Shown here: positions 32,303-33,609 of the stretch, piece by piece
Position numbering within the stretch: position 1 is the first letter of the stretch
How the letters are laid out: every line of letters begins with the position of its first letter
Source: a virus
Strand: one strand, 5' to 3'
Length of the DNA stretch: 64,000 nt
IMG/VR virus record: IMGVR_UViG_3300034684_000096
Span: 56,005 to 120,004 of that record
Translations under genes and position numbers: made by a program
Notes under the pieces: model-generated
The model's database searches: none
What the model was told of the DNA's origin: nothing
Seen by the model: the letters and a program-made list of their open reading frames with translations, nothing else

Positions 32303-32337
32303 TTGGCTAGGTAGGCTTCGAACCTACAAATGCCCTG
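32303..32337 (-). pseudogene. 3' half of a tRNA interrupted by tnpB
   Basis: GTAGG-TTCGAAG-CCTAC-CTAGCCA-A; matching 5' strand TGGCTAG at 33599-33605. Confidence 0.8.
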
Positions 32338-32338
32338 T

Positions 32339-33577
32339 TTATAGTATCTCATTCCCATATAAGGAATTAGTAGACACTTCAAGGAAACTGCCTTGAGGAT
32401 TATAAACTAATCTTCTTGGTCTTACAGTTTCTCCATGCCTGTACTCGTCGTACTCCGACGATTTTAAAAATTCATTCTCAATATTGATTGAGGCATTCAA
32501 ATCTCTGTCAATTTCAAAACCACAATCACATTTATACACTCTATCAGAAAGATTTAAATCTTTATTTACTTTCCCACAACTAGAACAAGTCTTTGAACTA
32601 GGAAAGAATCTATCAACTTTGTATACTGTTGTATTGTACTGTTTGGCTTTTTGTTCCAATCTAATAACAAATGAACTCCAATTAATATTCTGAATACTGT
32701 GGCTCAACTTTCTGTTTTTCTTCATACCAGAAACATTTAAATCTTCAAGTACTATAGCTTGGTTTTCACTACATAACTTGTTGGATAAATGCCACTGAAA
32801 ATGATTAAGATAATTTTGCCTATATTCATACAACATATTCAATCGTCGTTTACAAGCATACCATCTATTGGAACCTTTTACTTTTCTTGATAGATGTTTT
32901 TGTTGTTTTCTAATAGTACTATCTAATCCTGCTATCTTGTCTTTTATACCATAAATAAAATCTCCGTTTGAACAAACTGCAAATTCTTTTAATCCTAAAT
33001 CAACACCAACTATATTATCAGAAACCCTTTTACGCTTTTCGATTTGTTCCTTTTCTACCAATATAGATGCGTAATATTTTCCTGATTTAGCCTTAGATAC
33101 TGTAACGTTTTTTATAATACCTGAAAAATCTCCTGATAACCCTCTTATTTTTACTTTCCCAAGCTTTAAAAGAACTATTCTTGTATTCTCTTCTGTTAAT
33201 CTTGGTAATTCTTTAATGATGCATTCTCTATAAGAATCATTACATTTTCCTTTCTTTTTAAACTTCGGGAAACCCGGTTTATGCCCTTGCTTTACCCTTC
33301 TAAAGAAGTTAGTGTATGCCTTATCCAAATTAAGTTGACTTTGGTTGAGTGCACTAGCAGATACCTCTTTCAACCAAGAAAATTCTTTTCTAAGATTTTT
33401 AATAGTAGGATACTTATAGGTTTTTAACATTTCTTTATTGTCCTTATATTTTTCATAAAAAGAAATTCTATCGGCCAAAGAATAGTTATACACATATCTA
33501 CAACAGCCTATTGTTTTATTAATAAGTTCTGCTTGTTGTTTTGTTGGGTATAGTCTTACTTTGTATGCTTTGTACAT
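32339..33577 (-). mobile_element. tnpB: IS200/IS605-family TnpB RNA-guided nuclease, no transposase nearby
   Basis: MYKAYKVRLYP HTH, RuvC VGVDLGLK / LEDLNV / DRDLNASINI, CSSC-CDC Zn ribbon. Confidence 0.95.
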
Positions 33578-33609
33578 TAAATAACCTCTTTGTTTCCACT
33601 AGCCAGTTA

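What the first reader, a model, noticed from the sequence alone, without database searches (positions are those of the whole stretch)
32303..33605. Solo TnpB embedded inside a tRNA gene, with the tRNA 3' half in the guide position
Seen: TGGCTAG-TGG lies ~20 nt upstream of the tnpB start, and its exact partner CTAGCCA plus a full T arm lies just after the stop. The D and anticodon arms are gone. All three RuvC acidic residues are present, and there is no tnpA or obvious left end. Established: the TnpB omega-RNA overlaps the 3' end of the ORF and takes its guide from the flanking DNA. Inference: the guide is tRNA sequence (..AGGGCATTTGTAGGTTCG..), making this an RNA-guided homing nuclease against intact tRNA alleles of competing phages or the host. 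It would be expressed from the tRNA operon, and the re-formed acceptor/T helix might let tRNA-processing enzymes define the RNA ends. It parallels the protein-guided nuclease in the tRNA-Leu 4 kb away.
Basis: partly seen in the sequence, partly recalled or inferred. Interest (0 to 1): 0.78.

Follow-up and report, generated by a model that had tools for sequence, protein, structure and literature searches.

The report
Transposase-less TnpB cassette splitting phage tRNA
A 1.2-kb RNA-guided nuclease gene (TnpB) with its guide RNA has replaced 14 bases in the middle of a tRNA-like gene of an uncultured phage, sibling phages still carry the unbroken gene, and the guide is templated by that gene, so the cassette probably spreads between phages like a homing endonuclease.

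Summary
An intact tnpB (32339-33577, minus strand; three Pfam TnpB domains, RuvC triad, zinc ribbon) lies between the two ends of a tRNA-like gene in the phage tRNA cluster.

Contigs from four public runs of four studies join window 32343 to 33584 through the same 14 letters. So the inserted DNA is 32344-33583 (1240 nt), and it replaces only 14 nt. The D and anticodon arms are not wholly gone.

The rebuilt empty allele is 77 nt. It has a 7-bp acceptor stem, a canonical T arm and an anticodon arm with anticodon TAT. Its D arm is poor, and ARAGORN calls it only in its relaxed mode.

The guide-RNA scaffold overlaps the ORF's 3' end, shown by a drop in synonymous rate and by covarying stems. It ends at ...GAGATAC, so the guide template is the tRNA from the anticodon to the T stem, within about 3 nt.

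No tnpA and no left end exist.

Homing into sibling phages is the best reading, but the TAM, cleavage and expression are untested.

This scan has noted similar transposase-less phage TnpB cassettes on other DNA, one in a tRNA-Glu. I class it as a new variant of a known kind.

The parts
33584..33605 (-). Retained 5' piece (22 nt) of the tRNA-like gene: the acceptor 5' strand TGGCTAG plus most of the D region. Its AAAGAGG lies 7-13 nt before the tnpB ATG and is the only Shine-Dalgarno-like sequence there.
   Evidence: Sequence. It is contiguous with the rest of the gene in the empty allele of 4 of 4 runs.
32344..33583 (-). Inserted cassette, 1240 nt: 6 nt, the tnpB ORF, and the guide-RNA scaffold ending ...GAGATAC. 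It replaces 14 nt of the tRNA-like gene (the 3' side of the D region, the 5' strand of the anticodon stem, and positions 32-33).
   Evidence: The joint 32343->33584 'skips 1240' with the same 14 letters between in X3, X4, X10 and X12 (tables 5, 5c and 8).
32339..33577 (-). tnpB ORF, 412 aa, RuvC triad D193/E278/D357, zinc ribbon. Its last two codons (CTA TAA) cross the cassette end, so the stop codon is made of anticodon-loop bases of the tRNA-like gene.
   Evidence: dN/dS is 0.115 against L012 and 0.079 against L013.
32344..32482 (-). Predicted omega-RNA scaffold overlapping the last ~45 codons: a stem at about 32461, a long composite stem, a terminal hairpin (CTAATTCC...GGGAATGAG) and an ATAC tail. 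The 5' limit is approximate.
   Evidence: dS falls from 0.86 to 0.22 (L012) and from 2.7 to 0.49 (L013) in codons 366-406. Fold z-score -2.38. 7 of 19 consensus pairs show compensatory changes across 7 sequences. The non-coding stretch after L012's stop is still conserved with ours.
32324..32343 (-). Guide template (20 nt shown; the real length is probably 16-20 nt and the start is uncertain by up to 3 nt): anticodon TAT, A37 A38, the 3' strand of the anticodon stem, the variable loop and the 5' strand of the T stem.
   Evidence: It follows the cassette end directly. It is 100% identical in the empty alleles of X3 and X12 (tables 3 and 8). It has no other match with fewer than 3 mismatches in the 120-kb genome.
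32303..32343 (-). Retained 3' piece (41 nt) of the tRNA-like gene: anticodon to discriminator A.
   Evidence: The T-arm part hits annotated tRNA genes of other phages.
33610..33771 (-). tRNA-Gln(ttg) and tRNA-Ser(tga), directly upstream. The split gene starts 4 nt after tRNA-Ser, which is the usual spacing in this array.
34213..34241 (-). Promoter-like site TTGACA-17-TATAGT (11 of 12, with TG) in front of the RF-1-domain gene. No terminator-like site lies before the next promoter-like site at 32045-32017.
   Evidence: consensus scan only, not evidence of function.

Best explanation
Shown: a transposase-less TnpB/omega-RNA cassette (32344-33583) is present in this ~120-kb uncultured phage and absent from close sibling phages. 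It sits inside a tRNA-like gene (anticodon TAT) of the phage tRNA cluster and replaces 14 nt of it. It has no tnpA and no left end. The protein is under purifying selection. Its 3' end overlaps a conserved, covarying RNA scaffold that ends at the cassette boundary. Established for the family (ISDra2 TnpB; review PMC13565253, passages read): the guide is transcribed from the DNA just beyond the right end. Inferred: the guide here is the tRNA-like gene from the anticodon to the T stem. When a cassette-bearing phage and a cassette-free sibling infect one cell, TnpB-omegaRNA would cut the intact gene of the sibling. Repair from the cassette-bearing genome would then copy the cassette in. This is 'non-restorative' transposon homing, the RNA-guided counterpart of T4 SegB in its tRNA cluster. 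The carrier would be immune because the 14 nt on the TAM side of the target are gone. Also inferred: transcription comes from the promoter-like site at 34241 through the tRNAs, and translation starts from the D-region AAAGAGG. How the first copy arrived (an insertion plus a 14-nt deletion, or illegitimate recombination) is not resolved.
For: Empty allele: one contig in each of 4 of 4 runs from 4 studies joins 32343 to 33584 through the same 14 letters. X3's contig is 52 kb and has 5 other letters in 30900-32343. Those 14 letters complete a perfect 5-bp anticodon stem and a 7-nt loop with U33 and A37, so they are ancestral gene sequence. Run X12 holds the empty allele together with three tnpB pieces (151, 181 and 151 nt) that carry no difference from ours. 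TnpB is intact with dN/dS 0.08-0.12. Scaffold: the dS drop, covariation in 7 of 19 pairs and fold z -2.38. Boundary. No tnpA is present. All relatives above 50% identity come from viral or metagenome contigs, and the best of the 79 cellular loci kept is 45% identical. Homing that depends on TnpB and not on TnpA is reported for plasmids (Mears et al. 2025, known to me only as cited in PMC13565253).
Against: The TAM of this TnpB is unknown. The bases 5' of the target in the empty allele (...CCTGTCT, or ...CTTAT if the right end is 3 nt longer) match no TAM that I could derive. The left junction carries AAGAGG|T, which resembles the AAGGGG|T and AAAGGG|T in front of L012 and L013 and the G-rich IS607 TAMs quoted in PMC13565253. 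If that motif were the TAM, the real empty allele would have 14 nt between TAM and target and would not be cut. The insertion is not a clean transposition, since 14 nt are lost. The cassette junctions are supported only by the window's own assembly and a second contig carrying the identical protein; no other run bridges them. The tnpB pieces in X12 could lie at another site.
Confidence: 0.55

Rival explanations
1. An immobilised relic. An IS200/IS605- or IS607-type element inserted into the gene and then lost its left end (and tnpA, if it had one) together with 14 nt of flank. TnpB is still intact but has no cuttable target, so the cassette only hitch-hikes with the phage.
For: 14 nt are missing, which ordinary transposition does not cause. 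There is no left end and no tnpA. A TAM-like AAGAGG lies at the left junction, 14 nt from the target in the empty allele. The nearest relatives with a transposase are IS607-type, namely L172 with a Resolvase+HTH gene, and one of them has a frameshifted tnpB.
Against: dN/dS of about 0.1 and a conserved, covarying scaffold among copies sitting in three different contexts show that the cassette stays functional while it moves without a transposase. The ORF here has no defect. Carrier and empty alleles are nearly identical in their flanks, so the event is recent.
Confidence: 0.25
2. An exclusion weapon rather than a homing element. The nuclease cuts the tRNA cluster of competing phages (or a host tRNA gene) and kills or delays them, without the cassette being copied.
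For: The evidence for targeting is the same as for the best explanation. Killing of competitors by phage homing nucleases is described in the review (PMC13565253, passages read).
Against: The flanks of carrier and empty alleles are 99-100% identical over hundreds of bases, so recombinational repair from the carrier would be expected.
Confidence: 0.1
3. The guide is not tRNA-derived. The scaffold would end at ...GAAGTGTCTA, as the alignment with the 52-58% relatives L003, L170 and L172 might suggest. The next ~35 nt (the hairpin) would then be a fixed guide carried along from an older site.
For: In the 7-sequence alignment, conservation with L003, L170 and L172 stops after GAAGYGTTTA.
Against: The hairpin keeps pairing through changes: L013 has 8 perfect pairs, including a C-G to T-A double change (read by eye). 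L171 (52% identical) also has a hairpin followed by GATACTAT. Five Pectinatus copies and three copies in a Clostridia MAG end 35-80 nt after the same core, with a hairpin and a short tail. A guide has no reason to stay self-paired.
Confidence: 0.07
4. An assembly chimera: tnpB was joined to the tRNA cluster by mis-assembly.
For: No run other than the likely source runs bridges the junctions.
Against: The identical protein is on 2 contigs, the longest 120,596 nt. The runs X1 and X2 hold all sampled words of 31000-35000. The right-end boundary coincides to the base with the point where relatives' cassettes end. The ORF borrows its stop codon and its Shine-Dalgarno-like site from the flanks.
Confidence: 0.03

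Closest known systems
ISDra2 TnpB with its right-end (omega) RNA, IS200/IS605 family (PDB 8bf8, 8ex9, 8exa, 8h1j)
   Same: Same protein family and domain order, with the RuvC triad and zinc ribbon (E 6.5e-66). The guide-RNA scaffold overlaps the 3' end of the ORF and ends at the element's right end, so the guide is templated by flanking DNA.
   Different: There is no tnpA, no left end (6 nt before the ATG) and no other copy in the genome. The insertion replaced 14 nt of the target. The element resides in a phage. The TAM is unknown. The NCBIfam IS200_TnpB score of 330 bits lies under that model's 425-bit cut-off, and only the general guided_TnpB model passes.
Phage T4 SegB, a free-standing GIY-YIG homing endonuclease in the T4 tRNA gene cluster (PMC2330249; title and abstract seen in the search listing)
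   Same: A selfish nuclease gene lodged among phage tRNA genes. It targets the tRNA region of related phages in co-infection and is inherited preferentially.
   Different: SegB recognises its site through the protein and lies between genes. Here recognition would be by an RNA guide, and the cassette breaks the gene that it targets.
TnpA-independent 'non-restorative' homing of IS605 by TnpB among plasmids (Mears et al. 2025 preprint, known to me only as cited in review PMC13565253, passages read)
   Same: TnpB alone spreads the insertion into homologous DNA that lacks it. The review lists co-infecting phages as a theoretical target.
   Different: That case was an experimental system with a complete IS on plasmids. 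Here there is a natural presence/absence polymorphism of a transposase-less cassette in phage genomes, and it is untested.
IS607-type elements with the 53-58% identical TnpB in viral contigs (L170, L172)
   Same: They are the closest relatives that still have a transposase gene, with the same scaffold core sequence.
   Different: They carry a serine-recombinase tnpA directly upstream. Ours has none, and by profile its TnpB scores closer to the IS200/IS605 type than to the IS607 type (330 against 167 bits).
Earlier follow-ups in this scan of transposase-less TnpB cassettes in phages (e1-5709659, tRNA-Glu split in the anticodon loop; e1-1939405; e1-5934341; e1-5750069)
   Same: The same kind of object on other DNA: no transposase or left end, a guide that matches the intact allele of sibling phages, often at tRNA loci (AI notes, not checked by me).
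   Different: A different TnpB lineage: no shared sequence was found. Here the whole nuclease gene, not a stump, lies in the tRNA-like gene, 14 nt are replaced, and the empty allele is documented in four independent runs.

Membership tests
TnpB (RNA-guided nuclease of IS200/IS605/IS607 elements) | HTH + OrfB_IS605 (RuvC) + zinc-ribbon (TNB) domain architecture | tested here: met
   Pfam PF12323, PF01385 and PF07282 all score over their cut-offs. NCBIfam guided_TnpB scores 285 bits against a 100-bit cut-off, while IS200_TnpB scores 330 bits, under its 425-bit cut-off.
TnpB (RNA-guided nuclease of IS200/IS605/IS607 elements) | Catalytic RuvC D-E-D triad and CxxC...CxC zinc ribbon | tested here: met
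   D193, E278, D357 and C331, C334, C350, C352 are invariant in 12 of 12 aligned sequences. The motifs DLGLK, LEDLN and DRDLNA align to the solved TnpB-like chain. The equivalence to ISDra2 D191/E278/D361 is recalled, not computed.
TnpB (RNA-guided nuclease of IS200/IS605/IS607 elements) | Structured guide-RNA scaffold at or over the 3' end of the ORF, ending at the element's right end | tested here: met
   dS drop, covariation in 7 of 19 pairs, z -2.38, and a boundary supported. No Rfam family matched. RNA ends were not measured.
Autonomous IS200/IS605 or IS607 insertion sequence | A transposase gene (Y1 HUH TnpA or serine recombinase) | tested here: not met
   No PF01797 or PF00239 match in the 120-kb record, while both searches found matches in named control genomes (6 and 12 of 14). 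The record is estimated 85% complete.
Autonomous IS200/IS605 or IS607 insertion sequence | A left end with a subterminal hairpin, and insertion without loss of target bases | tested here: not met
   Only 6 nt separate the left junction from the ATG. The upstream DNA of L012, L013 and ours shares nothing beyond about 12 nt. 14 nt of the target are replaced.
tRNA gene | 7-bp acceptor stem, T arm with TTCRA loop, discriminator base, position in a tRNA array | tested here: met
   TGGCTAG/CTAGCCA, GTAGG-TTCGAAG-CCTAC and A73; the gene starts 4 nt after tRNA-Ser. The T-arm part matches annotated phage tRNAs.
tRNA gene | Anticodon arm: a 5-bp stem and a 7-nt loop with U33 and purine 37 | tested here: met
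   In the empty allele only: CCTGT-CTTATAA-ACAGG, anticodon TAT. In this window the 5' strand of the stem and positions 32-33 are missing.
tRNA gene | Canonical D arm, and a call by a tRNA finder | tested here: not met
   At most 2 of 4 D-stem pairs form in the canonical register (by eye). ARAGORN in bacterial mode does not call the rebuilt allele at default, 95, 90 or 85% thresholds. Its -mt mode calls the exact 77 nt with anticodon TAT. The MFE is -24.3 against a shuffle mean of -14.5, sd 2.9 (plain shuffles). The Rfam tRNA model could not be run on the rebuilt allele.
Homing nuclease system (by behaviour) | Natural alleles with and without the element at the same site, with near-identical flanks | tested here: met
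   The empty allele is in 4 of 4 runs laid, from 4 studies. Both forms appear in run X12.
Homing nuclease system (by behaviour) | The nuclease recognises the empty allele and not the carrier | tested here: inconclusive
   The guide template is identical to the empty allele in X3 and X12, and the carrier lacks the 14 nt on the 5' side of the target. The TAM is unknown, so recognition cannot be decided.
Homing nuclease system (by behaviour) | Cleavage followed by copying of the element (biased inheritance) | not testable with these tools
   This needs a cleavage assay and a co-infection cross.

The most novel reading that the evidence does not exclude
Phage tRNA clusters are an arena for natural RNA-guided gene drives. 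This transposase-less TnpB uses a tRNA-like gene as target, as guide template (anticodon to T stem), as ribosome-binding site (D region) and as stop codon (anticodon loop). It converts intact alleles of co-infecting sibling phages at the cost of the phage's only TAT-anticodon tRNA. Carrier and empty alleles coexist in one environmental sample.
Probability: 0.4. Interest if true: 0.75.

Novelty: new variant of a known kind. Interest (0 to 1): 0.55.

Why it matters
TnpB is known to keep its transposon in place by cutting the emptied donor site. A transposase-independent drive has been reported for plasmids, and spread between co-infecting phages is so far listed only as a theoretical case (review PMC13565253, passages read). 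My two literature searches returned no paper describing a transposase-less TnpB inside a phage tRNA gene with a documented empty allele. This locus offers a ready natural test. The carrier and empty alleles differ only by the cassette. The predicted 16-20-nt target is known. The nuclease is intact, and both forms occur in the same sample type. A positive cleavage or co-infection result would show RNA-guided homing between viruses in nature. It would also explain why transposase-less tnpB genes are common in large phages. Because the scan has already met several such cassettes, this case adds a well-documented example rather than a first.

Tried and rejected
No near relative of the region exists in the phage collection (megablast). 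The best protein match there is 41% identical.

The RF-1-domain neighbour gave one related viral locus (L011). It has no tRNAs and no synteny.

Exact scans of viral contigs for the T-arm/acceptor 24-mer and for the scaffold core found nothing. The empty allele could therefore not be fetched as a locus, and neither the Rfam tRNA model nor a covariance model could be run on it.

Rfam gave no hit for the tRNA halves or for any guide-RNA family.

Cellular genomes: among the 79 loci kept, nothing is above 45% identity.

The contigs of P0002, P0004 and P0005 (82-86% identical) were not obtained.

TAM inference failed. I compared the bases 5' of the target in our empty allele with the presumed naive site of L012 under four possible right-end positions and found no shared motif. 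I also considered the purine-rich motif at the left junction as a TAM, but in L012 it lies inside DNA that is extra relative to the duplicated gene end, so it cannot be read simply as flank.

Expression: no RNA holder was listed. Only contigs were laid, so RNA ends and levels are unknown.

A 17-of-20 match to the guide at window 52735 lies inside a 2321-aa ORF, with mismatches near the TAM-proximal end. I judged it to be chance.

The hairpin ATTCC-TTATATG-GGAAT looked at first like an anticodon arm. It is part of the cassette, because it is conserved in L012 and L013.

No structure prediction or complex prediction was run, since none would decide the open questions. Supplementary files of papers were not consulted.
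Full report
What is there. The window is part of a 120-kb viral record, estimated 85% complete. On the minus strand a promoter-like site (34241-34213) is followed by several genes. They are a 122-aa RF-1-domain gene, tRNA-Gln(ttg), tRNA-Ser(tga), the feature under study and a 73-aa ORF. 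No terminator-like site lies before the next promoter-like site at 32045.

Four bases after tRNA-Ser comes TGGCTAGTGG (33605-33596). Eighteen bases later the 412-aa ORF starts (33577-32339). Directly after its stop come a T arm, the exact complement CTAGCCA and a discriminator A at 32303.

The ORF is a TnpB. It has three Pfam domains and passes the NCBIfam guided_TnpB model. ISDra2 TnpB is the best natural solved relative, at E 6.5e-66. The residues D193, E278, D357 and four cysteines are invariant in 12 of 12 aligned relatives. It is single-copy. The record has no Y1 transposase and no serine recombinase.

The empty allele. I found public runs that hold the region. I then laid the contigs of four runs from four different studies on 30900-35100. 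In each of the four, one contig joins 32343 to 33584, skipping 1240 nt, with the same 14 letters in between. X3's contig is 52 kb long and differs at 5 places in 30900-32343. X12's piece has no difference in 32277-32343. X10's is about 4% diverged and still has the same 14 letters.

So the inserted DNA is 32344-33583, and it replaces 14 nt. Twenty-two nt of the 5' side and 41 nt of the 3' side remain.

I rebuilt the empty allele inside a script. It is 77 nt long. The 14 letters supply CCTGT, which pairs perfectly with ACAGG of the retained 3' piece. The loop is CTTATAA, with U33, anticodon TAT and A37. That fit shows that the 14 letters are ancestral gene sequence and not filler.

The D region is poor. 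ARAGORN in bacterial mode does not call the gene even at 85% thresholds. Its relaxed -mt mode calls exactly these 77 nt with anticodon TAT. I therefore call it a tRNA-like gene.

ATA makes up 31% of isoleucine codons in the 71 ORFs of 150 aa or more in this genome. None of the 8 tRNAs called in the genome has this anticodon. The carrier has thus given up a plausibly useful gene.

Where the guide starts. The closest copies with DNA in hand are L012 (84% aa identity) and L013 (75%), both from metagenome contigs. L012 sits in an unrelated context. Its DNA stays alike to ours through the end of the ORF and through 13 non-coding bases after its own stop. It then diverges after ...GAGATACTAT. In run X10 an 85%-identical copy stops being alike at 32341 and runs on for 72 unlike letters. 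The empty-allele joint is at 32343/32344. The three estimates agree within 3 nt.

I took seriously the rival that the scaffold ends about 35 nt earlier, at GAAGTGTCTA. That is where likeness to the 52-58% relatives L003, L170 and L172 stops. Against it stand several points. The intervening stretch is a hairpin that stays paired through changes in L013. L171 has a hairpin followed by the same GATACTAT. In relatives with several copies per genome (five in Pectinatus, three in a Clostridia MAG), the copies stay identical for 35-80 nt beyond the same core, through a hairpin and a short tail, before the flanks diverge.

The scaffold itself is supported by three results. The synonymous rate drops in the last 41 codons, with dS 0.22 against 0.86 for L012 and 0.49 against 2.7 for L013. 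The fold z-score is -2.38. Compensatory changes occur in 7 of 19 consensus pairs over 7 sequences.

By the established behaviour of the family, the guide is the 16-20 nt beyond the right end. Here that is the anticodon, A37 A38, the 3' strand of the anticodon stem, the variable loop and the start of the T stem.

Is the cassette alive? dN/dS over 406 codons is 0.115 against L012 and 0.079 against L013. The three copies lie in three different contexts: ours in the tRNA-like gene, L012 after a small ORF, and L013 127 nt after a tRNA-Thr. Their upstream DNA shares nothing beyond about 12 nt. So the cassette moves and stays functional without a transposase or a left end.

All relatives above 50% identity come from viral or metagenome contigs. 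Among the 79 cellular loci kept, the best is 45% identical. The nearest relatives that still have a transposase are IS607-type (L172: Resolvase plus HTH). By profile, however, the protein scores closer to the IS200/IS605 type.

How it most likely works. The best reading is RNA-guided homing between co-infecting sibling phages. The carrier makes TnpB and a guide against the intact gene. The sibling's gene is cut and repaired from the carrier. The carrier is spared because the bases on the 5' (TAM) side of the target are replaced.

The setting exists. Carrier and empty flanks are 99-100% identical over hundreds of bases. Run X12 holds the empty allele together with tnpB pieces that show no difference from ours.

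The weak point is the TAM. I could not derive it. There is also a competing hint. The left junction reads AAGAGG|T, like AAGGGG|T and AAAGGG|T before L012 and L013, and like the G-rich IS607 TAMs quoted in the review (PMC13565253, passages read). If that were the TAM, the real empty allele would have 14 nt between TAM and target and would escape. The same motif is also simply the ribosome-binding site. In L012 it lies inside DNA that is extra relative to the duplicated gene end, so it is not plainly flank.

I give homing 0.55, an inert relic 0.25, exclusion without copying 0.10, a non-tRNA guide 0.07 and an artefact 0.03.

What can be said is that tRNA-Ser processing 4 nt upstream would give the tnpB message its 5' end, and that a 16-nt guide would end just where the T-arm hairpin begins. 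Both are inferences.

Comparison with what is known. The protein and its RNA are ordinary members of the TnpB family. What differs from a standard IS is the lack of a transposase and a left end, the replacement of 14 target bases, and residence in a phage tRNA cluster with a documented empty allele.

The behaviour proposed is the RNA-guided counterpart of T4 SegB (PMC2330249; abstract seen in a listing). It is also the phage counterpart of the TnpA-independent plasmid drive, which I know only as cited in the review. The review lists co-infecting phages as a theoretical target of such homing. My two literature searches returned no description of this arrangement.

Within this scan, however, at least eight earlier follow-ups describe transposase-less TnpB cassettes in phages. 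One splits a tRNA-Glu in its anticodon loop (unchecked notes). None is related in sequence to this one. I therefore class it as a new variant of a known kind, of moderate interest. Its main asset is the empty allele seen in four independent data sets.

Noticed in passing
L012:2299-2334 and L012:3666-3701: In the 84%-identical cassette copy, the 36 nt in the guide position are a diverged duplicate of the end of the 99-aa ORF just upstream. 28 of 36 bases are identical, all 8 changes are synonymous, and both read GKTFEVIRLKK-stop. The gene is thus kept whole beside its displaced old end. The two copies must come from diverged lineages. I could not reconstruct how this arose.
   Followed up: partly
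L013:989-1059 and 1186-2406: The 75%-identical tnpB copy starts 127 nt after a tRNA-Thr(tgt), which makes a second member of this small clade beside a tRNA gene. The contig ends 17 nt after its stop, so its guide is not visible.
   Followed up: partly
window 27860-28846 (minus strand): An orphan tRNA 5' end (GCTTAGG...) lies before a 250-aa ORF carrying a NUMOD3 motif (E 1e-4). A tRNA with anticodon TAA follows. After that comes an Rfam-only tRNA (33 bits) whose 3' acceptor strand pairs with the orphan 5' end rather than with its own (by eye).
   Followed up: partly
window about 33791-33796: X3's 52-kb contig has about 880 extra letters here, between the RF-1-domain gene and tRNA-Gln (record positions 15322 to 16202). 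X12's contig lacks 21 nt at 33791. The tRNA cluster is an indel hot spot among siblings. The content of the extra DNA was not seen.
   Followed up: no
window 32136-33741: One X10 contig joins 32136 to 33741, skipping 1604 nt, with a shorter side of 56 letters. It is possibly a relative that lacks tRNA-Ser, the tRNA-like gene and part of the 73-aa ORF. With a single contig at low likeness it may equally be another organism.
   Followed up: no
window 27946-28021: The tRNA that ARAGORN labels Leu(taa) is 76 nt with a short variable region, unlike bacterial class II tRNA-Leu. It shares the acceptor 5' strand TGGCTAG and A36-A38 with the split gene.
   Followed up: no
window 32339-32344 and 33584-33596: tnpB borrows both of its translation signals from the broken gene. 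The stop codon TAA is made of anticodon-loop bases beyond the cassette end, whereas L012 and L013 stop 18 nt earlier. The only Shine-Dalgarno-like AAAGAGG is D-region sequence that is also present in the empty allele.
   Followed up: yes
L172:1894-3758 and L170:423-1893: The 53-58% relatives in viral contigs are IS607-type, with a serine-recombinase tnpA overlapping the tnpB start. In L172 tnpB is split by a frameshift into 206-aa and 204-aa ORFs. In L170 tnpA is reduced to 86 aa.
   Followed up: partly
window 52735-52754: A 17-of-20 match to the predicted guide lies inside a 2321-aa ORF and is preceded by TTAT. About 0.007 such matches are expected under uniform base composition (my own estimate). 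The mismatches include positions 3 and 8, so I judged it to be chance.
   Followed up: partly
window 33816-34184: A 122-aa protein with an RF-1 domain (E 1.2e-9) and a GGQ motif is encoded directly upstream of the tRNAs in the same apparent transcription unit.
   Followed up: no
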